A DNA stretch of 64,000 nt from a virus (Duplodnaviria; Heunggongvirae; Uroviricota; Caudoviricetes). Shown here piece by piece: positions 22,289-56,285 of this stretch; the first letter of the stretch is position 1, and each line of letters opens with the position of its first letter. The translations under genes were made by a program, and so were the position numbers. The stretch spans positions 117,823-181,822 of IMG/VR virus record IMGVR_UViG_3300021256_000058. One strand, given 5' to 3'. A model generated the notes under the pieces. It was not told the DNA's origin, did not search any database, and saw only the letters and a list, made by a program, of their open reading frames with translations.

Positions 22289-22628
22289 TGTTTATGCAAA
22301 TCTCGTCAGAGAGTTTGATATTTTTAAAATTTGACAGATCAATTGTCAAGGGAGCTTCCGAACTAATAGAAGTAGTAACGTTATTATGATCGTCTGTCTT
22401 ATGAGTGTAAGTAATACTGTCATTAGATGCATTTGTAATATTTATTGGATTACCAGTAGTAGTATTGGCAGTATAGTACCATGGATAACTTGGAGAAGTC
22501 CAGGTCCAACTCTACTTGCGGCCATCCGCATATCCTGCTTCATAAACTTCATCAAGAAGTTTTTCAAGCTCTTCTTTTGTGAATACGATCTGTCCCTTAC
22601 TATTAGGATAGAACACTTTTACTTTCAT
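22275..22628 (-). CDS. hypothetical protein with 1 in-frame TAG, missed by the ORF track
   Basis: Its ATG overlaps the permease stop as TAATG. The 354-nt frame contains a single TAG and no TAA or TGA, which is notable in AT-rich DNA. Confidence 0.35.
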
Positions 22629-23878
22629 TATTCACTTTTCTCCTTTAACACTAAATTGAGGATAACTCCAACAATCAGACCGAGCGCAGTTGCTGAGAAT
22701 GAAAGTGTAGTTCCTCCAACTGCAAGACCACTAATACCAAGAGAAAGAACAGTAGAGACAATGATTAAATTCTTCTGGATATTAAGGTCAATCTTCTGTA
22801 ACATCTTAATACCTGAGCAAGCGATAAAACCATAAAGGATTATTGCAGCTCCTGCAAATACGCAGCTTGGTATGCTTGCAATAAAAGCTTGTACTGGGGC
22901 AAGGAATCCAAGTAGGACTAGGAATAGCGCTGCTCCCAATGTGACTTTAGTCGACGCAACTCGCGAAAATCCAACACAAGCAACGCCTTCTCCATAGGAA
23001 CAAATTCCGAGAGAACCTACGGAAGTACCGACTACGTTTGCAAGTCCTTCACCGATAAAGAGGCGTCCAAGTCCAGGCTTTTTGTAAAGATCTACACCAA
23101 CAATTCCTCCAAGTGCGGCATGGTCGCTTAAACATTCCATCATTGCGGAAATAGTATATGCAATGTACATTACTATGATGGGCACAAGAGTTGTAAACTC
23201 TACAGCAGCCCAATGAGTAAATGCGAAGTCTGGTACGGAAATGAATTTTAAATTGGCAAATACACTAAAGTCAATCAGCGGGTAAATTCCGCACACAGTC
23301 AAGATGACCGCATATACATAACCAATCAGAGTGCCCAAAAGGAATGGTAGAATTCGAGCAATACCTTTAGCATAATGTGAGATAATAGCGATAGCAAACA
23401 TTGTGATTAGTGCTGCGCTAACGCCCCACATATTTGTAATACCATTTACTTGAACATAAGTAAGAATAAAAGGCATCAGATTTACGCCAATCACAACAGT
23501 GACCGCACCAATAAGAGCATGAGGGAAGATTTTATATATCTTCTCTACTGGTACTTTTGTAAAAATAATACCAAATAAGCAATATACTAAACAAGTTACC
23601 AAACCACCGATTGCAACTGCGGTATAGCCTCCTGCGGCCAAGGCTGCCATTACTGGCGCTACAAAAGCACCAGAACTGGACACAAACATCGGAGACTTAA
23701 ATCCTGTGACAATTAAGTACAGAATTGTAGAAAGCCCTGCCCCAACCAGTGCTCCAGAGACCGCAACACCGCAGATATTTGCAATCAAAACTGTTGCAAC
23801 GAAAACTGAAAGTACAAGTTGAATTGAGAAGACTATCAGTTTATTAAACGGCAATTTGTCTTCAATATTATAAATCAT
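22628..23878 (-). CDS. NCS2-family nucleobase:cation symporter (uracil/xanthine permease-like)
   Basis: It has about 12 predicted TM helices. The C-terminal half, ...GFSRVASTKVT..IPSCVFAGAAIILYGFIACSGIKML, fits the UraA/PyrP signature. It is free of TAG. Confidence 0.75.
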   Translation of the reverse strand: MIYNIEDKLPFNKLIVFSIQLVLSVFVATVLIANICGVAVSGALVGAGLSTILYLIVTGFKSPMFVSSSGAFVAPVMAALAAGGYTAVAIGGLVTCLVYCLFGIIFTKVPVEKIYKIFPHALIGAVTVVIGVNLMPFILTYVQVNGITNMWGVSAALITMFAIAIISHYAKGIARILPFLLGTLIGYVYAVILTVCGIYPLIDFSVFANLKFISVPDFAFTHWAAVEFTTLVPIIVMYIAYTISAMMECLSDHAALGGIVGVDLYKKPGLGRLFIGEGLANVVGTSVGSLGICSYGEGVACVGFSRVASTKVTLGAALFLVLLGFLAPVQAFIASIPSCVFAGAAIILYGFIACSGIKMLQKIDLNIQKNLIIVSTVLSLGISGLAVGGTTLSFSATALGLIVGVILNLVLKEKSE

Positions 23879-25541: not shown

Positions 25542-26020
25542 TTTTGCTCCTTTAAATTAATAACTCTCTGATTAGTAGATCCACGCATCCAAAGGCTAAT
25601 ATCTCTCTGCTCTTGGATAAATGGCCCATCAATCAGTACATCTATCGTAGCTAAAATATCTTTTAAGCGAGGGCTACTATGATTTTGAAGCTCTTCATAC
25701 GTAAACCCTGTCCAAAGATAAATTTTTATATCTGGGTATTCTTCTCTTACCGCAGTTGCAACCATATAAGTAAGAAAAAGATTTTCTTCTGCTAATGGTT
25801 CTCCTCCCATAATGCAGAAATCTCTTTGAATACCATTGGCCTTTATACCATTAATAATTTCATTAATTGTATCTACTGTAAAAGTTTTTCCGCCGTCAAA
25901 GTCCCAAGTCTCTGGATTATGACATCCTGGGCAATGTCTGTGACATCCTTGGACGAAGAATGTCAAACAGACCCCAGGAGCTGCAGCAACATCGTTATAG
26001 ATTATGCCAGCGTATTTCAT
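25538..26020 (-). CDS. nrdG: anaerobic ribonucleotide reductase activating protein (radical SAM)
   Basis: Contains the Cys cluster FVQGCHRHCPGCHNPETW. Its ATG overlaps the nrdD TGA. Confidence 0.85.
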   Translation of the reverse strand: MKYAGIIYNDVAAAPGVCLTFFVQGCHRHCPGCHNPETWDFDGGKTFTVDTINEIINGIKANGIQRDFCIMGGEPLAEENLFLTYMVATAVREEYPDIKIYLWTGFTYEELQNHSSPRLKDILATIDVLIDGPFIQEQRDISLWMRGSTNQRVINLKEQK

Positions 26021-28293
26021 CGCATAATCCCCGTATGCTTGGTTCTTTCTTCAACTTCAGCTTGCTTTCCTTTATTAAAAGCAGTCTTATAGTTGCCTGT
26101 CAAATAACCAGTTACACGGCGGAGTTGCTGGATATTTTCACTACCACAAACTGGGCAATGGTCATTAAATTCACCAGTATAGCCGCAGTCAAGGCAGGTA
26201 TCATTTGGGACATTGATTGCAAAATATGGAATATCATGTTCCATAGCATAATTGACAATTTCTTCAACAGCATCAATATTGTTCAATACTGCACCATCAA
26301 GCTCCACATAAGTAATGCAACCACCATTAGAATAGCCAGTAAGCTGACTTTCAATGTCGATCTTCTCAAATGGAGACACTTCTTTCCATACAGGAACGTG
26401 CATTGAATTAGTGAAATACTCATGGTCAGAAACATTTTCAATTACACCATATTGCTCTTTAAACTTCTTCATAGCAGTATAGCAAAGATTCTCAGCAGGC
26501 GTATAATATACACCAAAGTTCAAACTATATTTCTTTTTGAATTCTGCGCAACGAGTATTAAACAATTGTTCAATATGTTTTGCAAGATTCATACCTTTAA
26601 CAGTAGTATGATCACATCCAATCAATAGCTGAAGAGCTTCGGCAAGGCCAAGTTGACCAATTACTAAAGTGCCGTGCTTAAGCGCGGAACGGATTCCCTC
26701 TTCAGGAATATAACCAGCCATTGTGCCATTTTCATACATGAATTTTGCACTTTCAGGGCTCTGGCTGCAAATCCATTCAAAACGCTCAATTAACATATCT
26801 CTTGCTTCTGCGATCTTCTGGTCAAGATATTTAAGGAAATGATCTTCAAGATTTGGATCACTAATACCATATTCATCAACTATTTGTTTTGCAAGAGTTG
26901 GAAGAATAATAGTAACAGGGCAAATATTACCACGACCATCTTTCTTAAAGCCCATACCATTAATATCGAAACCATTATAAGTTCTACAGCCCATCGTGCT
27001 TACATACTGTGTAGGATCATTTTTATCATATCCCGCATTTACTGACCAATCAACATTAGCGTAATTAGGATACAATCTCTTTGCGGTGCTTTCCAAAGCC
27101 ATGCGATAAAGATCATAGTTAGGAGTACCAGGTTTATCATTAACGCCTTTCATATACTGGAAAATACCACAAGGGAAAATAGAAGTTTTATGCAATTTAC
27201 CAAGTCCTTCAATAGAAACACTAAGGAGAGCCTTAGTTACCATTCTACCTTCTGGAAGCGTGCAAGTACCATAATTAATTGAAGTAAAAGGCAACTGATT
27301 GCCGCTACGGGATTGCAGAGTATTCAGATTATGATACATACCTTCTGCTGCCTGATGGACTTCTTTTTCAGTCATATCATAGGCATAACGATAAATATCT
27401 GCATCTTCTTTAAAATAATCATCTTCAATACCAAATTGCAAGCGTTTTGCATACCCAACTACTTCATTGATATTATGATCGTCAAGATTACCAATGTACT
27501 TGCATCCATCTGCATAATGTTTGTAGAATGATTTGCGGACATAGGGCACCATTGTCCAATCCAGATGAGTTGCACTTACTCCACCAAACTGCTGTAAACT
27601 TTGAAGCTGAAATAAAACTGCAACAAGCTGAAATGCAGTATTCACAGAACCGGCTGGCCGCACATCTGTCTGGCGAGTATTAAACCCATTAGCGAGCAAA
27701 TCATCTAATGGAAGACTTAGGCAATTATGGTCACCAACTGCATAATGATCTAAGTCATGAATGTAAATCATATTACCTTCATGGTTTGCTCTTGCCATGT
27801 CTGATACCAAATAATCAAGAGCATATTGTTTAGTCATATAACTTGTAGCTTCACCCATACGACCGCCAAATGAGTGTTCATCAATGTTAGCGTTCTGGTT
27901 CTGTACATTTCTTGCTTCGAGCTTCTCTCGAATTGGACGAATGAAATCGTCTTGTACATTACGAGCTACTTCTTTTTTATATCTATATCTAATATATGCG
28001 CGAGCCACATCACGGCGCTCTGAGCGCATCAAATAATCCTCAACCCAGTCTTGGATTAACTCTACTGGGATGGGAGCAACACTACCAATGACTTTTTTGC
28101 CAATTTCAAGCGCAATATCTGTTGCTGTATCGTTTTCATAAAGTTTTCCATCAACTTCAATGAAAGCCTTATTAATAGCATTAATAATTTTCTGCGCATC
28201 GAAGTTGACAGTTGAGCCATCACGCTTCAATACATGCATATAAATAAAACCTCCAAACCAAAATATTGTGTTAATTTTCGCGGACATCCACAA
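26017..28293 (-). CDS. nrdD: class III anaerobic ribonucleoside-triphosphate reductase
   Basis: 758 aa with an N-terminal ATP-cone (VLKRDGSTVNFDAQKI), a C-terminal Zn Cys cluster (CLDCGY...CPVCGS) and a glycyl-radical tail RVTGYL. Contains no TAG. Confidence 0.9.
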   Translation of the reverse strand: MWMSAKINTIFWFGGFIYMHVLKRDGSTVNFDAQKIINAINKAFIEVDGKLYENDTATDIALEIGKKVIGSVAPIPVELIQDWVEDYLMRSERRDVARAYIRYRYKKEVARNVQDDFIRPIREKLEARNVQNQNANIDEHSFGGRMGEATSYMTKQYALDYLVSDMARANHEGNMIYIHDLDHYAVGDHNCLSLPLDDLLANGFNTRQTDVRPAGSVNTAFQLVAVLFQLQSLQQFGGVSATHLDWTMVPYVRKSFYKHYADGCKYIGNLDDHNINEVVGYAKRLQFGIEDDYFKEDADIYRYAYDMTEKEVHQAAEGMYHNLNTLQSRSGNQLPFTSINYGTCTLPEGRMVTKALLSVSIEGLGKLHKTSIFPCGIFQYMKGVNDKPGTPNYDLYRMALESTAKRLYPNYANVDWSVNAGYDKNDPTQYVSTMGCRTYNGFDINGMGFKKDGRGNICPVTIILPTLAKQIVDEYGISDPNLEDHFLKYLDQKIAEARDMLIERFEWICSQSPESAKFMYENGTMAGYIPEEGIRSALKHGTLVIGQLGLAEALQLLIGCDHTTVKGMNLAKHIEQLFNTRCAEFKKKYSLNFGVYYTPAENLCYTAMKKFKEQYGVIENVSDHEYFTNSMHVPVWKEVSPFEKIDIESQLTGYSNGGCITYVELDGAVLNNIDAVEEIVNYAMEHDIPYFAINVPNDTCLDCGYTGEFNDHCPVCGSENIQQLRRVTGYLTGNYKTAFNKGKQAEVEERTKHTGIMR

Positions 28294-37639: not shown

Positions 37640-39172
37640 TTAAAAAATAGTCTCCTGTTCAGTGATAATTTTTGTATCATTCAACGGAATGATTTCATAA
37701 TCATAAGTTGTACAAAATATTGGATTTACGCGACAAGTGCCGAGGTCTGCTTTACACCATAAAACTATACCTTTATATCTACCTCTACGGTTTTTATAAA
37801 TTGAAAGTTTTAAATTTGGTGTAGGAAATTTATTTGTTGCTAAAATTACTTCAAGACTTTGTAGATCCTCTTCTTTTACATTCAGAAGAATTGAACCAAA
37901 GTCAATTTTATCTGCGATAGCTTTTGCGCCACGAAGAAGATTCTGGTCTGGTGTTTTTGCTTCTTGATAATCTCCATTCAACTGGGTCGCAGACATAATA
38001 AATATTCCATATTCATTACACAAATCTTTCAATCTAATTGATAACATAAACAGAACATTATCTTCTCTTAATTTAATACCACCACTACGTTTGGTAATTT
38101 CTTCAAGAATTTTGAGACTTGTATGAATATAATCATGAAATACATATTTTACATCATGATCTCGAACATTTTTCTTAATACGATCTTCAATATCCTGCAA
38201 AGAAAAATCTGGCAGCTCTTCAATATAAAGTGGCGAATTTTTTAAAATATTTGCAGCTTCACGCACTCGCTTCTCTTCATCGCCTTCATATCTGCCATCC
38301 AAAATATGATCTTCATTTACATTTGCAAGAAATGCAAGCATCATAGTTTGAATTTCTTCTTTTTCCTGTTCTGTTGTGATATATAATGTCGGCTCAGCTT
38401 GACCATTAGGAACCCAACAACCGAAATCTTCATTAAATAATTTATTACATCCAATAAAACAGGCGTCTGCCACCATGGTACGAGACTTACCGACACCAGT
38501 AGGCGCTGACCGCAAATAAAACTTCTTCAATCTTGCGCCCCTTGTAACTGTATTAATTAATGGCCCATAAAGTGGTACACCTACTTCTGGATGTTCCATT
38601 AAATTATCAATAAGTTCATCAATACCATCACCAGCTTGATATGCTTCTCCATATGAATCATCTACATATTTCATGCGGATTTCATCAATTTTACCATCTA
38701 CTCGATCAGCAATTTGTTCAAGACTAACATTATCAAGCCAATCTTCTTGTTCTTGTTTTTTCTTTACGTCCAAAATATTATCTGGATCATAAATATCAGA
38801 AACATCTACACCAAAACTATCATATGCGCGTAATAGTGTAAACTTTTTTAACCGATTATAATAATAATCAAATGTTGCAGAATCAGCATTTTCACTAACT
38901 TGAGTAAGCCATTCAGCTCCTTTTTGTTTAGTAAAAATAGCCTCGTTTTTGGGACGAGAAGCCAAATAATCAGTAATAGAATTTAATGTAATCTTCTGAG
39001 AACCAAGATTATAGAGCTTATAAATACACCCAAAAACAACTTTATGAAACTGATCTGGGAAATCTTCTTCATTAATTGTATATCTATCAGTATAATCCAA
39101 AAGTTGCGGTTGATTAAATACACAACCTATAACTTGCATTATTGCTGATGTATCAACGTATTTACTACTCAT
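37640..39172 (-). CDS. DnaB-like replicative helicase
   Basis: An N-terminal DnaB-N-like region is followed by the Walker A motif LRSAPTGVGKSR. It is 510 aa. Confidence 0.65.
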   Translation of the reverse strand: MSSKYVDTSAIMQVIGCVFNQPQLLDYTDRYTINEEDFPDQFHKVVFGCIYKLYNLGSQKITLNSITDYLASRPKNEAIFTKQKGAEWLTQVSENADSATFDYYYNRLKKFTLLRAYDSFGVDVSDIYDPDNILDVKKKQEQEDWLDNVSLEQIADRVDGKIDEIRMKYVDDSYGEAYQAGDGIDELIDNLMEHPEVGVPLYGPLINTVTRGARLKKFYLRSAPTGVGKSRTMVADACFIGCNKLFNEDFGCWVPNGQAEPTLYITTEQEKEEIQTMMLAFLANVNEDHILDGRYEGDEEKRVREAANILKNSPLYIEELPDFSLQDIEDRIKKNVRDHDVKYVFHDYIHTSLKILEEITKRSGGIKLREDNVLFMLSIRLKDLCNEYGIFIMSATQLNGDYQEAKTPDQNLLRGAKAIADKIDFGSILLNVKEEDLQSLEVILATNKFPTPNLKLSIYKNRRGRYKGIVLWCKADLGTCRVNPIFCTTYDYEIIPLNDTKIITEQETIF

Positions 39173-39833
39173 CTATTACCTCATCTTCGTCTAAAAACGA
39201 GAACAATTCTTTTCTTTTAATTTTTCTTTGCGGTAAAGGGATATGAATCTCCCTAACTTCTGGTACATACTCATTCATATCCTTATCTTTATTTTTATTA
39301 TTGGCCAGCCATATACTATAATAATAATTATAAGCTGCTTTATATACAAATGGAACGATACCAATGCCATCATTAGCCTTTTCAATTCCATGCTCTTGAA
39401 TTTCATAAAAATATTTCAGAGCTTTTAAGATTCCACTATATGTAAAATTATAATCATTCACATATTGATTAATTTGTTTCTTAATCCTTGGAGAAACATA
39501 ATCAATATGAAATAGATTCATAATATAATCATCTAATTTTTCCGCATCAGTTTTTTCTCTTCTTTTTTCTTGTTCGTAACAAACTGAATGAGCATATTTA
39601 CCATTAAAAAATTGATATGGAGTTTTAGATTTACTAAATTGCTTTTTACAATATACACATGTTACAATATCAAGTGGATCAACTATAGGAACTGTTGGCC
39701 ATTCTGGATGTGATACTCGTCCTCTAAGGTAACAATCCGCATGAGCATAACGTCTTGTTTTCAATTCTACATATGCTGTACGATCTCGATCAAAACGCTC
39801 GCCGCAGATTTGACAAGTAACTTGATGGGCCAA
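39165..39833 (-). CDS. zinc-ribbon protein, possible helicase loader
   Basis: Contains two C..C...H..CY ribbons. Its end overlaps the helicase start by 8 nt. Confidence 0.45.
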   Translation of the reverse strand: MAHQVTCQICGERFDRDRTAYVELKTRRYAHADCYLRGRVSHPEWPTVPIVDPLDIVTCVYCKKQFSKSKTPYQFFNGKYAHSVCYEQEKRREKTDAEKLDDYIMNLFHIDYVSPRIKKQINQYVNDYNFTYSGILKALKYFYEIQEHGIEKANDGIGIVPFVYKAAYNYYYSIWLANNKNKDKDMNEYVPEVREIHIPLPQRKIKRKELFSFLDEDEVIDE

Positions 39834-42650: not shown

Positions 42651-42663
42651 AATTTCTCCCTTA

Positions 42664-43653
42664 CTTTATACTATATCCATATTCTTTAGCCTTGAAATAA
42701 TCCTACCAATAGTCTTCACGAGCATTGAGATCTTGTGGTTTACATTCTTCAATTATTTCAAATGTAAAATTCTCTACACCAAGAGCTAACATAGCAGGAT
42801 AAAGTTTATTGCGGGTAGGCTATTCTGCGCCTATACCGCGCTTAATGTGCTATTTCCATCTTTCTGCAATATTTATTGCTTGACCTACATAGCACATTTG
42901 ATTTTCTAAATTAGTTATTTTATAAATACCAGTTTTTGATTTTGCCCCTACGACTCGGCCAATCAAATCTGTGTAAGGTTTTTCATAATAAACTTTATAA
43001 ATAACTTTGTTGAGAGGCTCCTTATTTCTTAAATAAGGTTCAACAGATCTCAATTTTGCGATTTCTTCAATATCTATATCAGATAATTGTAACCGATAAA
43101 AATCTTTCTTTTCACGTTCAAGTTCTGCGCGCTTGGCTGCCTCTGTAGCAGCAGTAACTTTAGATTGAAATTCTGCAAGTTGAGCCTAAGCAGCTTCTAC
43201 TTGCTGGCCCATCTACCGCGCAGTAGCAAGGAGATCCGCAATAACCTGTTCATACTCAGCCCTACATTCTTCTTCTCCCTCCTGGTATTTAGCACCAGTT
43301 TTTTCAAGAGCATGTTCAAGCTTTTCTTCTGCAAGTTTCATCTAATTATCATAAAAAGTTTTTGCGGCATCTTCTGCTTGAGCCTATGAATTTTTATAAT
43401 ATCTATCGGTTTCATCTACTTTAGTGCGTAATATTTGAAGTTTTTTCTCTTCTTCTGCCTATTGGAGCTATTTAGTATTAATACTTACTTCAATATTACG
43501 CTATTGACTTTCTAATTCTTGTAGGGCAGCGCGCTCATGAGCAATATTCTCTTCATTTATCTTTCGGATTTGTTGCTGAGGTATAATCCGACAGATTATA
43601 AAGACTATTAAACCTACGATTATGCCCCCTACAAGCGCATATATCCACTACAT
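42664..43653 (-). CDS. N-terminal TM helix + long coiled coil + C-terminal GIY-YIG nuclease domain, about 330 codons with 11 in-frame TAG
   Basis: The start is ATG-TAG-TGG, giving M Q W IYALVGGIIVGLIVFIIC, a TM helix. A Q/E/A-rich coiled coil follows. The C-terminus reads GIYKITNLENQMCYVGQAINIAERWK-Q-HIKRG...FTFEIIEECKPQDLNAREDYW-Q-DYFKAKEYGYSIK, which is colinear with I-TevI-type GIY-YIG domains. It is in frame with the track ORF 42850..43053 and ends in TAA. Confidence 0.65.
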
Positions 43654-52150: not shown

Positions 52151-52179
52151 ATTATACCATAATTTTTTTACTTTTGCAA
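52151..52179 (-). promoter_or_regulatory. sigma70-type promoter TTGCAA-N17-TGgTATAAT
   Basis: + strand attataccat 52151-60 and ttgcaa 52174-79, with a 17-nt spacer. Confidence 0.6.
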
Positions 52180-52208
52180 ATTTTTGTTTTCAAGACAAAA
52201 CAAAAAAA

Positions 52209-52235
52209 TCCCAAGGGATGTATTACCCCTTGGGA
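52209..52235 (-). terminator. hairpin terminator after the holin-like gene
   Basis: tcccaaggg / cccttggga inverted repeat followed on the - strand by a T-run. Confidence 0.6.
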
Positions 52236-52240
52236 TTAGT

Positions 52241-52558
52241 TTATCCGACTGGCGTATCGTCATAAGTTTCAACGCCACGAATCATTTTTTCATAATTAAT
52301 ACCATCTTTGGTATTCTCTTTCTCTGACTTTTTATAGAAAAAAGCCTAACTTACGCCATATGCTCCCCATGGCATTGACACCATGGCAGTTAGCCAGGGC
52401 AGTTCACCGAAATACTACTTGACAATACAATAAAATGCGAGTATAATAAAAGATAGAGTTGTAATCCAAATTAAAATTGATTCTTGTACAAGAAGTTTTT
52501 TGGAGAACTCAAGAGGTTTCTTTTTCTTTGTCTCTTGGGTTTTTTCTTCTTCAGACAT
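52241..52558 (-). CDS. holin-like 2-TM membrane protein with 2 in-frame TAG
   Basis: The ATG is embedded in the endolysin 3' end as gATGtcTGA. The product has the TM helices ILIWITTLSFIILAFYCIV and LPWLTAMVSMPWGAYGV. It is 105 codons, ends in TAA and was missed by the ORF track. Confidence 0.45.
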
Positions 52559-53861
52559 CGAGAGTGTAGGTTAAGTCAATCCAACCTTCACGGTCGGCCA
52601 ACTTACCATATACTCCTTCTTGTTTAGTGATTACAACTTCTTCACCCTGATGCACTAAACCAAGAACTTCAGAATGCTTATTTGACTCGGCACGAATGTT
52701 CAAAGATTGCGCGGTAATACGCACTTTCTGCCCAGCTGCTACTGATGGTTTTGCCGTGCCTACTCCCCAGCGTGGTACACCATAGCCAGCAATTGAACTA
52801 TAACCAATAGGATAAGTGCGTCTTGCTACTTGGTCAGAAGAGTTGCCTTCAATAGTAACTACAGTAGTTGGGGTGACAGATTCTACGATACCAGTATGGT
52901 TAATACCACCACTGTAATAGAAGAAAATTTGAGAACCAACAGCAGGAGTATTACTCCATTGGCCTGCTGCTTTATAATAATCTGCGGAATAAGAACAAGC
53001 TGCTCCGCAATCACCAGTTTGGCAGATTAGGCGTTCTGCTTTTGCGCGATCGCGTCCGCATAGCACCCAATAGCACCAGTCCGCAAAAACATCGCACCAG
53101 GCATAGCCGTTTTTGTTCCCGTTATAATAACCCGCATTAGCTAAATCACGGGCATATTTTGTCCAGTTATTACCGCCCGCGTTTGCAGTTTTATCATCAA
53201 GCTAAGAATTGCTATTTTTCTCCCGATAGCCAATTTCCGCAGCTGCAATCTTAACTAAATTTTGCGGGGTAATATCTCCACTAACCACAGGAGTTGTGTC
53301 ATCTTTTGGTGTAACATCTGTGGTCGAATCGTCATGCTTATTTTCCTGTGCCTCTTGGATTAATTGTAAATATTTTGGATGAACGTTACCAGTTACCAAT
53401 CCAGTTTTCATAGTAGAAATTGTAACGCTACTACTGTTATTAATATTACGAACATATAAGTTCATTTTAAATAACCAACTTGGAATCTTTTGACCGGTAG
53501 TATATGTTGCACCATCTTTAAGTTTTACAATATCTCCGACAGAGAAATTCTTTACTTGTACTTGGTCATCATCTACAATGACCACGGTTGTCTTAGGATA
53601 GCTTGGATTGGTTACAGTATCTCCAAGAGCTTCATAGAGAGCTGTCCAGCTTTGTGGGCCAAATTCTCCATCTGGATCTAAGGAGTGCTCGGTCTAGAAC
53701 TTTATAACTGCGGCTAGGGTATTTGCCCCAAAATCGCCATCAGCGCCATCTGGGCCAAGGTCGTAACCTAATTCAATCAATTTAGTTTGCATATTTTGAG
53801 TATTAGAGCGATCTCTATTATTCAAACGCAATATAACTGATGGAACCGTTCTTACTGCCAT
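52551..53861 (-). CDS. endolysin: PG_binding_1 + CHAP amidase/peptidase + SH3b, with 2 in-frame TAG
   Basis: An ATG follows the RBS aaaggag. PG_binding_1 reads LGYDLGPDGADGDFGANTLAAVIKF-TAG-TEHSLDPDGEFGPQSW, with the TAG at the conserved FQ position. CHAP reads NGYAWCDVF...NHTGIVESV...EGNSS. The C-terminal SH3b reads KVRITAQSLNIRAE...WIDLTY. The track pieces 52551..53066 and 53202..53585 share a frame. Confidence 0.7.
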
Positions 53862-53884
53862 ATTTATACTCCTTTCTTAATATA

Positions 53885-53915
53885 AAAAAGTAAGGTAGAA
53901 ATAAATTCTACCTTA
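53885..53915 (-). terminator. hairpin overlapping the phoH-like stop
   Basis: aaggtagaa-ataaatt-ctacctt. Confidence 0.5.
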
Positions 53916-55193
53916 CATCTGTTCTGCTATTGCTGCTATTCTGCTTCGATGAATCTTAGTAAGTGTTATTTCACCATAAATATCATGGCCTCTAAATACC
54001 TTTGATGCTCGACGCATACCGTTATTTATTCCAGCAAATGCGATATCATCTACCTAGGCTTTTTCGTCACCATCTATGATACAAATACTATCTTCACCAA
54101 TACGTTGTAATGCTAATTTCATCATCGCAATATCGAGGTTTTGAGCTTCTGAAATATAAATACCAGCTTTCATACCGGTAGTATCATAACCTCTAATATC
54201 AGATAATGGAAGTAGAAGTAATTTTTCTTCATCAATTAATTTTTCTACTTCAATTCTGCTGCCGATTTTACTAATAAGTAAATTACCTATCTAAGAATCA
54301 AGAAGTTTCTCTTCTCTTGTACCGGGCAGATAGCCCAATTTGGCAGCGCCTTTGACCGCAACCGTATTGCAAAATACAATTATCTTTTCAATTTTATGTT
54401 TCTCTAATAAGCTAAATAAATAGCCAAGAGAAAGAATGGTTTTACCAGTGCCCGCAGGACCTTTAATCATAGTAATTTTATTATGAACAAGACTATCTGC
54501 AACAAATTGCTGGTGAATATCACCTGGCATTGGTTTAACTGTTCCGAAATGATCGGATGTAAAAGATGTAAAATTAACTTGTCGCCATCCATCGACTGTG
54601 CGAACTAGTCTGTCTACTGGCTCGCCTTCTGGATTACGTAAGATAAGGTATTGATTTATTAAGCAGTCTATGTCGAATTTATGTGAATAGAAATCTGCCA
54701 TAGTTTGCTCATTGGGGCAAGTAAAATCCATTATACCCGTATATTCATCATCTTCTGGTTCTACTGATTCAAGCATTCCGTCGCCAAAGAAAATGTTAGC
54801 TATTTCAAATAAGCAAGCATCATTGGTTACAAAAATTACTTCATCAGTTCGGACATTATTATTATAATCTATCGCAGTTGCTAATATTTTTGTATCATTA
54901 TTTACAGAAAAATTCTTTTCTAAAATAGGAGCAAGCATATCTTCTGTAAAGATATGAACGTGATATTTACCTCTATTTTTTACTAATAAATTGGTTAAAA
55001 TTCTGGCTTTATATTTGGTATCATCATCTTTATTAGCATTAGTTTTGATAGATTCTAATTCTTGTAAAGTGATAGAAGAAATTACGAACTCTTCGTCAGT
55101 CTTAAAAAGAGTAGGAATTTTTAAGAGTAAAGAGCAAGTATCATAAAATCTTATATCAGTCATCATCGTCTTCTTCCTCCTCATAATATTCAT
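53913..55193 (-). CDS. PIN + PhoH-like ATPase (PhoH2/YlaK-type) with 2 in-frame TAG
   Basis: Walker A GPAGTGKT. The sequence continues across the TAG at 54291 into ..VDEAQN-type DIAMMKLALQRIGEDSICIIDGDEKA-TAG-VDDIAF.., and it ends in TAA. Confidence 0.65.
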
Positions 55194-55209
55194 CTTCTTC
55201 TGATGGGAT

Positions 55210-55422
55210 CTAGAACCCTATTACATGAGTATGTTGGGGTTCTGGCTCTGACATTTTATTGATCGTATTGTTCAATTCTGTGATTTTTACGGTGCAATAG
55301 CCTTTAAGAATTTCTAAGGCCGATAAAAATACAGCGCAGAGCGCATCCAAAAGAGGATAAATTAGAGTACAAAAAACTATACCTAATATAAAGAATATAA
55401 AGTAATTGAGAATAGTAACCAC
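55210..55422 (-). CDS. small membrane protein
   Basis: 70 aa with the hydrophobic core IFFILGIVFCTLIYPLL. Confidence 0.4.
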   Translation of the reverse strand: MVTILNYFIFFILGIVFCTLIYPLLDALCAVFLSALEILKGYCTVKITELNNTINKMSEPEPQHTHVIGF

Positions 55423-55462
55423 TCTCCCCTCATACTTTATATAATAATTATTCTATTTTGTT

Positions 55463-55972
55463 TTATTTATTTTGGCCTTTATTACGGTTTCGTCTAATTG
55501 CTTGATAAAATCCTTCTTTTTCAGCTAAATATAAACGTAAACTAACCTTATGTTTATTAATCATTTCTTTAAATGTTGCAAGATCATCTTCATAATTGTG
55601 AATTTGACGTTGAAGCATTTTGTTCTCATATGATTTGGGATTAAAGTGAGTTGAATGTTTCATTGAATAATAAAGTTGTCTGAGAGCATTATATGCTGGT
55701 CGAAGTTCACAGTCTCTAACATAGCATAAATAATCTATATAAGCGCGTCGATATGCTACTTCCTACCCAACAGTGCGATTCTTAAAATCTACATCATCTG
55801 GATGGCAAGTGGCCGTCCCGCAGAATGTTTTACCATTATATTCAATTATACAACTGGCTATGCCAGTACTTTCATCCCAAGTAAATAAGGGCTCCGTAAG
55901 CATATGGTGTCCTCCTTTATTTAGTATATTAATATTATACCATAAATTTATAGAAAAAGCAAATCCGGACAA
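55463..55972 (-). CDS. hypothetical Cys-rich protein with 1 in-frame TAG (fusion of two track ORFs)
   Basis: The TAG at 55763-65 lies exactly 102 nt, in frame, upstream of the 55663 start, which links 55763..55972 and 55463..55663. Confidence 0.4.
55934..55962 (-). promoter_or_regulatory. sigma70-type promoter TTGCTT-N17-TGgTATAAT
   Basis: + strand attataccat and aagcaa with a 17-nt spacer. Confidence 0.6.
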
Positions 55973-56051
55973 TTTGAAGAAAAAATTAGCCTATGCGGGA
56001 AAATTGCGGCAACGGTCGTTCACGCTGGCCAACTGTCAACAAAAAAGGCGC

Positions 56052-56285
56052 TCATAAAGAGCGCCCTCCCAGTACCTATTCAATAGCCTGCTGCCATTCA
56101 TAGTCATGTTTAATTTTCTTCAATTCTTCTATTGCATCATCAATAGAATAATAGCCATCGTGTTCAAATGAATCACCATAGCCAAGAGAGATCTCTACTT
56201 GCCCGTTAAATTTAAAATCTTGGTCTTCCATTATTACTCCACCACGTCCATGCGCATAGTCCACAATATAGTGCAATACCAACAA
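56052..56285 (-). CDS. hypothetical protein; the track ORF ends in TAG, and TGA follows 8 codons later
   Basis: The TAG at 56076-78 is followed in frame by VLGGRSL and then TGA inside the terminator hairpin aaggcgctc...gagcgcc. Confidence 0.4.

What the first reader, a model, noticed from the sequence alone, without database searches (positions are those of the whole stretch)
52241..55972. A lysis and late cassette sits inside the early strand and is translationally gated by TAG
Four genes fill the space between the TAG-free gyrB and the RNA-repair genes. They are a holin-like 2-TM gene with 2 TAG, an endolysin with 2 TAG, a PIN-PhoH ATPase with 2 TAG and a Cys-rich hypothetical with 1 TAG. 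The cassette has a perfect-spacing sigma70-type promoter upstream at 55934-55962. Transcription therefore looks host-sigma driven, and the timing is instead imposed at translation by amber suppression. The holin start is nested in the endolysin 3' end as gATGtcTGA.
Basis: inference. Interest (0 to 1): 0.7.

Follow-up and report, generated by a model that had tools for sequence, protein, structure and literature searches.

The report
Amber-recoded lysis module in replication genes
A gut phage of about 180 kb that reads the TAG stop codon as glutamine keeps its cell-bursting genes, each carrying TAG codons, among TAG-free DNA-replication genes; this is a clear new example of a published idea, not a new mechanism.

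Summary
On the minus strand between gyrB and the RNA-repair genes lies a unit bounded by a promoter and a terminator, and all its genes carry in-frame TAG. TAG is decoded as glutamine. Family matches run across the TAGs, relatives have Gln at those columns, and near-identical strains show TAG/CAG polymorphisms.

TAG makes up 8 of 43 Gln codons here and 0 of 90 in the neighbouring genes. In 14 relatives the figures are 14-16% against 0.7%. The promoter is real, conserved, and one of 11 promoters of the same type on this strand.

- A conserved intrinsic terminator separates the endolysin and holin-like genes from that promoter.
- A unique conserved GC-rich element sits just upstream of the promoter.
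- A TAG-free sister clade keeps the same layout and the same late-type codon usage.

TAG therefore looks like an added lock or a marker of late translation, not the sole timer. No suppressor tRNA was found in the roughly 84 kb I could examine. Control of lysis by stop-codon recoding was already proposed by Borges et al. I file this as a new member of a known kind.

The parts
56041..56070 (-). Intrinsic terminator that closes the upstream RNA-repair operon (kinase, metallophosphatase, small ORF)
   Evidence: Hairpin GGGCGCTC/GAGCGCC followed by a T-tract, -18.4 kcal/mol, z = -5.3. Sequence read.
55965..56030 (-). Conserved GC-rich element directly upstream of the -35 hexamer (core CGACCGTTGCCGC at 56018-56006, then ..TAGGCTAATTTTTT..AAATTGTCC). 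Function unknown; possibly a binding site for a regulator.
   Evidence: Aligned across 9 relatives. The pattern CGRYCGTTGYYGS occurs once per locus in 25 loci, always at this position and on this strand, and in none of the loci that lack geneA. The stricter 15-nt core AACGRCCGTTGCCGC has one exact match in the window; two further matches need 3 mismatches, one of them overlapping this site on the other strand. No Rfam match and no consensus RNA fold.
55934..55962 (-). Sigma70/sigmaA-type promoter: TTGCTT, 17-nt spacer, TGgTATAAT (extended -10)
   Evidence: One of 11 intergenic TTGnnn-17-TGnTATAAT sites on this strand. Conserved upstream of geneA in relatives.
55463..55903 (-). geneA, 146 aa, function unknown. 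AAGGAGG then ATG; one TAG at codon 47 (55765-55763).
   Evidence: 300 unnamed homologues. Weak match to PHROG 32438. AlphaFold model with pLDDT 92.6: a three-strand sheet plus a long helical hairpin, with no PDB fold match. One strain has CAG in place of the TAG.
55156..55422 (-). geneB, 88 aa, membrane protein with an acidic C-terminal tail. GTG start; one TAG at codon 71 (55212-55210). Its 3' end overlaps the PhoH2 start.
   Evidence: Orthologues lie between geneA and PhoH2 in relatives.
53913..55166 (-). PIN-PhoH (PhoH2-like RNA helicase/RNase), 417 aa (426 aa if it starts at 55193). TAG at 54293-54291 and 54056-54054.
   Evidence: Pfam PIN_4 2e-12 and PhoH 2.4e-27; PHROG 2765 3e-70; NCBIfam PhoH2 6.8e-29. 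Both TAGs fall on columns that are Gln (or TAG) in every aligned relative that has a residue there. Public gene calls give 417 aa.
53884..53916 (-). Internal intrinsic terminator. The PhoH2 stop codon lies in the stem, which is followed by TTTTTT. The endolysin ribosome-binding site starts about 7 nt further on.
   Evidence: -15.4 kcal/mol, z = -4.3. A terminator at this position occurs in most relatives, with unrelated stem sequences and no TGnTAnAAT after it.
52551..53861 (-). Endolysin, 436 aa (PG_binding_1, CHAP, SH3_3). TAG at codons 56 and 220.
   Evidence: The PG_binding_1 match (19-75) spans TAG56 and the PHROG 9589 match (200-376) spans TAG220. Strains show TAG220 to CAG and CAG172 to TAG.
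52241..52558 (-). Holin-like small membrane protein, 105 aa. TAG at codons 48 and 71. Its ATG overlaps the endolysin TGA (ATGtcTGA), and no Shine-Dalgarno sequence of its own was noted when reading the sequence.
   Evidence: 1661 unnamed homologues, including a 100% identical public call that uses code 15. No Pfam, PHROG or NCBIfam match. Codon 71 is Gln in most relatives.
52198..52237 (-). Strong intrinsic terminator that closes the unit
   Evidence: 13-bp stem, -22.3 kcal/mol, z = -5.3.
52151..52179 (-). Separate promoter of gyrB (TTGCAA, 17-nt spacer, TGgTATAAT). Marks the downstream boundary of the unit.

Best explanation
The window comes from a phage of about 180 kb, probably infecting an anaerobic Gram-positive host, that reads TAG as glutamine late in infection.

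The region is a conserved module made of two sub-units.
1. A sigmaA-type extended -10 promoter drives geneA, geneB and PhoH2. It has its own conserved upstream element, and the sub-unit ends at an intrinsic terminator.
2. An endolysin and a translationally coupled holin-like gene follow. They have no recognisable promoter and sit between two terminators, so they are most likely reached only by read-through or antitermination.

All five genes belong to the phage's late translation class. They carry sense TAG codons and use late-type Gln and Leu codons (CAA, TTA). Their replication and repair neighbours avoid TAG almost completely.

Consequence, by inference: before a TAG-decoding suppressor is active, ribosomes stop at codon 56 of the endolysin, before the CHAP domain, and at codon 48 of the holin-like protein, after its first membrane helix. 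The holin start has no Shine-Dalgarno sequence of its own and overlaps the endolysin stop, so stopping inside the endolysin should also starve the holin start of ribosomes.

TAG therefore works as a lock on full-length synthesis. It was layered on an older, TAG-independent arrangement of terminator insulation, late codon usage and presumably the holin's own clock. It is not the sole timer.

Shown: TAG is decoded as Gln; the two gene classes exist; the promoter and terminator layout is conserved.
Inferred: when suppression starts, terminator read-through, translational coupling, and holin function.
For: TAG is decoded as Gln:
- Family matches span the TAGs.
- The window's PhoH2 TAGs fall on columns where the relatives have Gln.
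- Strains of the same phage show TAG/CAG polymorphisms.
- Public gene calls use code 15.

Two gene classes:
- Window: TAG is 8 of 43 Gln codons in the unit and 0 of 90 in the flanks (p = 7e-5).
- 14 non-redundant relatives: 40 of 290 and 21 of 134 against 6 of 880, at lineage-specific positions.
- Codon class: in the unit CAG is 14% of the CAA+CAG pair and TTG 18% of the TTA+TTG pair. The tail-fibre genes give 14% and 21% (p = 1.0 and 0.85). The TAG-free neighbours give 53% and 52% (p about 1e-5).

Layout:
- Promoter class and its conservation.
- The internal terminator is canonical and recurs in relatives with different stems.
- Other TAG-rich genes on this strand also sit directly behind terminators. 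The 330-aa GIY-YIG protein has 11 TAGs and follows a terminator.
- The tail-fibre genes are also separated by terminators, with no sigma70-type promoters between them.
- The TAG-free clade has the same layout and the same codon split (13% against 74% CAG, p = 2e-10).

Host clues: the PhoH2 relatives are in phages of Bacillus, Enterococcus, Lactococcus and Alicyclobacillus. The endolysin is of the Gram-positive type. The phage carries an anaerobic ribonucleotide reductase, NrdD.
Against: - No suppressor tRNA(CUA), release factor or aminoacyl-tRNA synthetase gene was found in the window, in the 10-kb extensions on each side, or in any fetched locus. Only about 84 kb of the roughly 180 kb could be examined.
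- Nothing here measures timing. The sigma70-like promoters could be active throughout infection.
- Terminator read-through or antitermination is inferred only from the lack of a recognisable promoter. A non-sigma70 late promoter overlapping the hairpin cannot be excluded, and my k-mer search found no late-promoter motif at all.
- The TAGs in PhoH2 lie in its last third and the TAG in geneB lies before the acidic tail only. Truncated products might keep some activity.
- The second membrane helix of the holin-like protein is weakly hydrophobic in this phage, and the protein matches no known holin family.
- Whether the TAG-free clade is truly standard-code genome-wide could not be checked. In the clade locus whose ORFs I read one by one (L004), TAG is not used as a stop either.
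Confidence: 0.6

Rival explanations
1. The whole cassette is transcribed early from a constitutive host-sigma promoter, and amber suppression alone sets when lysis proteins appear.
For: - The promoter is of the same class as 10 others in front of TAG-free replication and repair genes.
- TATAATATA lies upstream of 47 of 258 TAG-free genes but only 1 of 59 TAG-rich genes across all loci. An early-type promoter in front of TAG-bearing genes is therefore unusual.
- TAG is excluded from the neighbouring genes.
Against: - A conserved terminator separates the endolysin and holin from that promoter.
- A unique conserved element lies upstream of the promoter.
- The TAG-free clade has an identical layout.
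- TAG density is lower than in structural genes and shows no 5' bias.
- geneA loses its only TAG in one strain.
- No suppressor tRNA was located.
Confidence: 0.2
2. Passive-marker model. TAG codons have no regulatory role. They build up by C-to-T drift at CAG codons, and at neighbouring codons, in any gene that only needs translating after the code switch. Timing comes entirely from transcription (terminator read-through or an unseen late promoter) and from the holin's intrinsic clock.
For: - TAG positions are scattered along the genes and are lineage-specific.
- TAG and CAG turn over quickly within one species.
- TAG density is modest, 10% of Gln codons in the endolysin.
- The TAG-free clade keeps the same architecture and the same late codon class.
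Against: - Whatever their origin, TAGs at codon 56 of the endolysin and codon 48 of the holin must block full-length synthesis while TAG is read as stop. A functional effect follows even if it was never selected for.
- In all five sequences compared (the window and four other strains) the endolysin keeps two TAGs and the holin at least one, but the sample is too small to show selection.
- Borges et al. report lysis genes as preferentially recoded in two other clades.
Confidence: 0.3
3. The TAGs are real stop codons. The ORFs would then be pseudogenes, split genes or assembly errors.
For: Under the standard code each gene is broken into pieces.
Against: - Domain matches continue in frame across the TAGs.
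- Orthologues in more than 14 lineages are intact, with Gln at those columns.
- The same TAGs recur in independent assemblies from several samples.
- Allowing TAG as sense raises the summed length of ORFs of at least 100 aa from 16,510 to 22,902 codons.
- At most two genes in the window end at TAG, and both have a backup stop close by.
Confidence: 0.01

Closest known systems
Stop-codon-recoded phages with recoded late and lysis modules (Borges et al. 2021/2022, bioRxiv 10.1101/2021.08.26.457843; read)
   Same: - TAG is read as an amino acid in structural and lysis genes while the replication genes stay in the standard code.
- Recoded modules are dispersed around a large genome, as described for the Jade, Sapphire, Agate and Lak clades.
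- A homing-endonuclease-type gene is heavily recoded.
- Close relatives differ in code.
- TAG is scarce as a stop codon.
- The proposed role is the same: post-transcriptional control of late genes and of lysis timing.
   Different: - The lysis genes here are less recoded than the tail-fibre genes, not more.
- A PIN-PhoH2 operon behind an early-type promoter is part of the recoded block.
- The lysis pair is also insulated by a conserved terminator.
- No suppressor tRNA or code-change module was seen in the sequence available.
- Which named clade the phage belongs to, if any, was not determined.
Phage T4 lysozyme gene e (from my own knowledge, McPheeters et al. 1986; not checked here)
   Same: A lysis enzyme whose early transcripts exist but cannot be translated, so that the enzyme appears only late.
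   Different: In T4 the block is an RNA hairpin that hides the ribosome-binding site, relieved by late promoters inside the hairpin. Here the block would be in-frame TAG codons relieved by a suppressor. The hairpin here is a terminator that does not cover the ribosome-binding site.
Phage lambda pR'-tR'-S-R-Rz late and lysis control by Q antitermination (from my own knowledge)
   Same: A host-sigma promoter is followed by an intrinsic terminator, with the lysis genes downstream. Those genes are expressed only when the terminator is read through.
   Different: - Three genes lie between the promoter and the terminator here.
- No Q-like antiterminator or qut-like site was identified.
- Read-through is an inference.
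Gram-positive phage holin-endolysin cassettes
   Same: A modular endolysin (cell-wall-binding domains plus CHAP) sits next to a small protein with membrane helices and charged ends. The two reading frames overlap.
   Different: - The order is endolysin then holin.
- The small protein matches no known holin family.
- The cassette sits in the replication module next to gyrB, not at the end of the structural module.

Membership tests
TAG-to-Gln (code 15) recoded phage | In-frame TAG inside conserved genes, aligned to Gln in relatives | tested here: met
   TAG/CAG polymorphisms between strains.
TAG-to-Gln (code 15) recoded phage | TAG is not used as an ordinary stop codon | tested here: met
   Genes in the window end in TAA or TGA. 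Only two ORFs reach TAG first, and both have a backup stop 0 or 8 codons later.
TAG-to-Gln (code 15) recoded phage | TAG concentrated in late, structural and lysis genes and avoided in replication genes | tested here: met
   Window: tail-fibre genes 39%, cassette 19%, flanks 0% of Gln codons. Relatives: 14-19% against 0.7%.
TAG-to-Gln (code 15) recoded phage | Phage-encoded suppressor tRNA with anticodon CUA | tested here: inconclusive
   None in the window, in the two 10-kb extensions, or in any of the 93 loci fetched. About 95 kb of the genome could not be reached.
TAG-to-Gln (code 15) recoded phage | The host uses the standard code | not testable with these tools
   Host unknown. The strong avoidance of TAG in early genes is indirect support.
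Holin-endolysin lysis cassette | Peptidoglycan hydrolase with a catalytic domain and wall-binding domains | tested here: met
   PG_binding_1 1e-14 and CHAP 7e-8, both above the Pfam cutoffs. PHROG endolysin 4e-26.
Holin-endolysin lysis cassette | Adjacent small protein with one to three membrane helices and a charged C-terminus | tested here: met
   First helix at 28-46 (hydropathy 2.5). The second is weak in the window protein but clear in the L004 orthologue. K/E-rich ends. The reading frame overlaps the endolysin stop.
Holin-endolysin lysis cassette | The small protein belongs to a described holin family | tested here: not met
   No match in Pfam, PHROGs or NCBIfam at E <= 0.01. 1661 homologues, none named as a holin.
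Sigma70/sigmaA extended -10 promoter | TGnTATAAT with TTG of the -35 hexamer 17 nt upstream, placed before a gene with a Shine-Dalgarno sequence | tested here: met
   The -35 hexamer TTGCTT matches the consensus at only 3 of 6 positions, so the generic scan skipped it. Conserved in relatives.
Sigma70/sigmaA extended -10 promoter | Activity, and the time at which it is active | not testable with these tools
   No expression data available.
PhoH2 (PIN domain plus PhoH ATPase) | N-terminal PIN domain and C-terminal PhoH domain in one protein | tested here: met
   PIN_4 48 bits (cutoff 21.9) and PhoH 96 bits (cutoff 27). The NCBIfam PhoH2 equivalog scores 101 bits against a cutoff of 680, so it is a relative and not an equivalog.
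Lambda-type antitermination control of lysis genes | Intrinsic terminator between the promoter and the lysis genes, with no promoter after it | tested here: met
Lambda-type antitermination control of lysis genes | An antiterminator protein or RNA and its recognition site | not tested
   No candidate identified. geneA has no fold match. The GC-rich element lies upstream of the promoter, not in the transcript.

The most novel reading that the evidence does not exclude
A poised-message lysis timer. The endolysin-holin mRNA is made from early on at a low level, from a host-type promoter through a conserved leaky terminator, but it cannot be translated. The switch of genetic code, when the TAG suppressor appears, is then the event that starts the lysis clock; a late promoter is not. 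The unique GC-rich element and the terminator would set how much poised message accumulates. In the TAG-free sister clade, late phage tRNAs for rare CAA and TTA codons would do the same job more weakly.
Probability: 0.2. Interest if true: 0.6.

Novelty: new member of a known kind. Interest (0 to 1): 0.3.

Why it matters
This is a clean, comparison-rich example of the recoding-as-lysis-control hypothesis, which I did not find tested experimentally in the paper library.

Three features make the family a good test case.
- The same gene order exists with and without TAG in sister clades.
- TAG and CAG are polymorphic within one species.
- The lysis pair is short and could be expressed with or without an amber suppressor.

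The data also urge caution. The terminator, the late-type codon usage and the layout are all present in the TAG-free clade as well, so TAG in lysis genes may be a by-product of late translation and not the timer itself.

There is a practical point for annotation. Under the standard code this block breaks into fragments. Even the code-15 public gene calls I inspected list no 88-aa gene between geneA and PhoH2.

Tried and rejected
- Megablast of 50-58 kb against GenBank phages gave no match. The best tblastn relative of PhoH2 is Alicyclobacillus phage KKP_3916 at 42%, and its annotation is all 'hypothetical'.
- Searches for related loci with single proteins (tail-region protein 723-1379; gyrB) found nothing. 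An alignment of gyrB was needed.
- Rfam gave nothing at gathering thresholds. Three weak matches in the cassette are probably chance.
- Suppressor tRNA: ARAGORN found none in the window, in all loci, or in the extensions L090 and L092. A look-up of the window's last gene was not on record. An odd tRNA in L009 with an 8-nt anticodon loop is not a CUA suppressor.
- Late-promoter motif: k-mer enrichment upstream of TAG-rich against TAG-free genes recovered only the early TTGATTTT..TATAATATA promoter and one orthologous hairpin family. No late motif emerged. My first idea, that TTTTTTAT(T)ATAT after hairpins is a late promoter, was dropped; those are terminator T-tracts.
- A whole-codon-table likelihood score did not separate the cassette from either class. 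The separation appears only in the Gln and Leu A/G-ending codon pairs.
- RNAalifold on the GC-rich element predicted no structure, but my coordinates for some relatives were imprecise.
- geneA: no PDB sequence match and no significant fold match (best E = 0.14).
- I considered a T4 MotA-box reading of TTGCTT and rejected it. The spacing is that of a normal -35 hexamer, and relatives have TTGATT.

Full report
What the window is. With TAG allowed as a sense codon, the summed length of ORFs of at least 100 aa rises from 16,510 to 22,902 codons. The plus strand from 1.6 to 18.9 kb carries five large tail-fibre-like genes with 5-18 in-frame TAGs each. The minus strand from 19.7 to 64 kb carries genes that are mostly TAG-free. 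These include PolIII alpha, DnaB, helicases, NrdD, NAD-dependent DNA ligase, gyrA, gyrB, RNase H, an RNA ligase, a kinase, a metallophosphatase, NADAR and SPFH. The same phage is present in public assemblies as contigs of 172-181 kb, and those were gene-called with code 15.

Checking the observation. The four genes, their TAG counts, the ATGtcTGA overlap and the promoter at 55962-55934 are all present. The family matches cross the TAGs: PhoH covers 226-418, PG_binding_1 covers 19-75, and PHROG endolysin covers 200-376. Several corrections are needed. A fifth gene was missed, an 88-aa membrane protein with an acidic tail and one TAG at 55422..55156. The first gene starts at the ATG at 55903, behind an AAGGAGG site. 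A canonical terminator at 53916-53884 (-15.4 kcal/mol, z = -4.3) lies between PhoH and the endolysin. The unit is bounded by terminators at 56070-56041 and 52237-52198, and gyrB has its own promoter.

TAG is glutamine. In seven relatives found through PhoH and 32 found through gyrB, the order geneA-geneB-PhoH2-lysin-holin-gyrB-RNaseH-gyrA is broadly conserved, although individual genes are missing or unrecognised in some loci. Both PhoH2 TAGs of the window fall on columns that are otherwise Gln. Across relatives, TAG sits at different, lineage-specific positions. Four strains 95-99.7% identical to the window show TAG/CAG polymorphisms in geneA, PhoH2, the endolysin and the holin-like gene.

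There are two classes of genes. In the window, TAG is 8 of 43 Gln codons in the unit, 0 of 90 in the flanks (p = 7e-5), and 66 of 168 in the tail-fibre genes. In 14 non-redundant relatives the flanks have 6 of 880, geneA/geneB/PhoH2 have 40 of 290, the lysin and holin have 21 of 134, and the 330-aa GIY-YIG protein has 42 of 217. Within the species, TAG/CAG changes occur almost only in genes that already carry TAG. None occur in gyrA, gyrB, the ligases or SPFH, although those genes have many CAG codons. The one exception is a CAA-to-TAG change at codon 186 of the metallophosphatase gene in one strain. TAG is therefore selected against in the early genes and tolerated in the unit.

Codon usage agrees independently. 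In the unit CAG is 14% of the CAA+CAG pair and TTG is 18% of the TTA+TTG pair. This is indistinguishable from the tail-fibre genes and very different from the TAG-free neighbours at 53% and 52%.

Transcription signals. On the minus strand, 11 intergenic TTGnnn-17-TGnTATAAT sites lie 23-65 nt before start codons (binomial 2e-14). The cassette promoter is one of them and is conserved in relatives. Across all loci, TATAATATA lies upstream of 47 of 258 TAG-free genes and 1 of 59 TAG-rich genes.

Three findings argue against timing being purely translational. First, the terminator between PhoH2 and the lysin recurs in most relatives with unrelated stems. The gap to the lysin start is usually only about 30-100 nt, and no sigma70-type promoter follows. 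Second, a GC-rich element just upstream of the -35 hexamer occurs once per locus in 25 loci, always at this place, and nowhere else. Third, a sister clade on contigs of roughly 120-195 kb has no TAG in any of these genes. It still has the same promoter, terminators and gene order, and the same Gln codon split, 13% CAG in the unit against 74% in the flanks.

The heavily recoded 330-aa gene shows the same pattern. It follows a promoter, a small TAG-free gene and a terminator, and this holds in the TAG-free clade as well. The tail-fibre genes are also separated by terminators. Late expression in this phage therefore appears to involve reading through terminators.

Mechanism. I conclude that this is a late-translated module of two transcriptional sub-units. 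Until TAG is decoded, the endolysin stops at codon 56 and the holin-like protein at codon 48. The holin start overlaps the endolysin stop and I saw no ribosome-binding site of its own. Premature termination in the endolysin should therefore also deprive the holin start of ribosomes; this step is inferred. TAG acts as a lock added to an older arrangement. Whether it was selected as a timer or accumulated passively is not resolved. TAG positions show no bias toward the 5' end, density is lower than in the tail-fibre genes, and one strain lacks the only TAG of geneA. No suppressor tRNA was found in the roughly 84 kb I could examine.

Gene identities. The endolysin is secure. PhoH2 is secure as a PIN plus PhoH protein. 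The holin-like protein has 1661 unnamed homologues and matches no family; its first membrane helix is strong and its second is weak. geneA has 300 unnamed homologues. A confident model (pLDDT 92.6) shows a three-strand sheet and a long helical hairpin, with no fold match.

Comparison with what is known. Borges et al. already describe recoded structural and lysis modules dispersed in large phage genomes, recoded homing endonucleases, close standard-code relatives, and the hypothesis that recoding times late genes and lysis. Two searches of the paper library found no experimental test of that hypothesis. This window is a new member of that kind. Its specific additions are the terminator insulation, the PhoH2 operon inside the recoded block, and the TAG-free sister clade with the same layout.

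Noticed in passing
window 55965-56030 (-): A GC-rich element of about 60 nt in an AT-rich genome, lying between the upstream terminator and the -35 hexamer of the cassette promoter. It occurs once per locus in 25 related loci, always at this place, and nowhere else in about 0.8 Mb of related sequence. No RNA family or consensus fold was found.
   Followed up: partly
window 42661-43653 (-): A 330-aa protein with an N-terminal membrane helix and a C-terminal GIY-YIG domain of the group I intron endonuclease type (the middle looks like coiled coil by eye only). It has 11 in-frame TAGs, the densest on this strand. It starts about 10-15 nt after a terminator hairpin, and I saw no Shine-Dalgarno sequence. 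The arrangement is conserved in relatives, including the TAG-free clade.
   Followed up: partly
window 20355-20858 (-) and 19716-20276 (-): A RuvC-like Holliday-junction resolvase with 6 TAGs and a neighbouring membrane protein with 2 TAGs. They sit at the strand switch next to the tail-fibre genes and form another TAG-class block on the replication strand.
   Followed up: partly
window, all genes; locus L055: Use of Gln and Leu codons splits the genes into two classes. TAG-free genes use CAG at 53% and TTG at 52%; TAG-bearing and tail-fibre genes use them at 14-21%. The Gln split is even stronger in the TAG-free clade (74% against 13%). Relatives carry tRNA arrays that include tRNA-Gln(UUG) and tRNA-Leu(UAA) (L038, L084). 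This suggests late genes depend on phage tRNAs.
   Followed up: partly
window 39162-39833 (-) and 56052-56285 (-): Two genes otherwise free of TAG reach TAG as their first stop and have a backup stop close behind: TAG-TAA in tandem, and TAG followed by 8 codons and then TGA. Once TAG is decoded, the second protein would gain 8 residues.
   Followed up: no
loci L057, L071-L073, L077, L078, L081, L084 (gyrB region): In several relatives gyrB is interrupted one to three times by insertions that carry ORFs of about 210-310 aa, probably introns or inteins with homing endonucleases. The window's gyrB is uninterrupted.
   Followed up: no
locus L009 448-524: ARAGORN calls a tRNA-like gene with an 8-nt anticodon loop and an undetermined anticodon, inside a 14-tRNA array of a relative whose permease is 84% identical to the window's.
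   Followed up: no
window 22628-23878 (-), 26017-28293 (-): The phage carries a xanthine/uracil permease family gene and an anaerobic ribonucleotide reductase, NrdD, with an ATP-cone. Both are auxiliary nucleotide-supply genes and are consistent with an anaerobic host.
   Followed up: no
locus L092 1-10000 (beyond the window's right end): Just outside the window the same phage encodes radical-SAM, glycosyltransferase, YcaO, cREC_REC and YAcAr-domain proteins, according to the public gene calls.
   Followed up: no
window 55156-55166 (-): The geneB stop codon and the PhoH2 start overlap (ATGATGACTGA). This is a second case of likely translational coupling in the unit. The public gene calls shown for this phage list no gene in the geneB interval.
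   Followed up: partly
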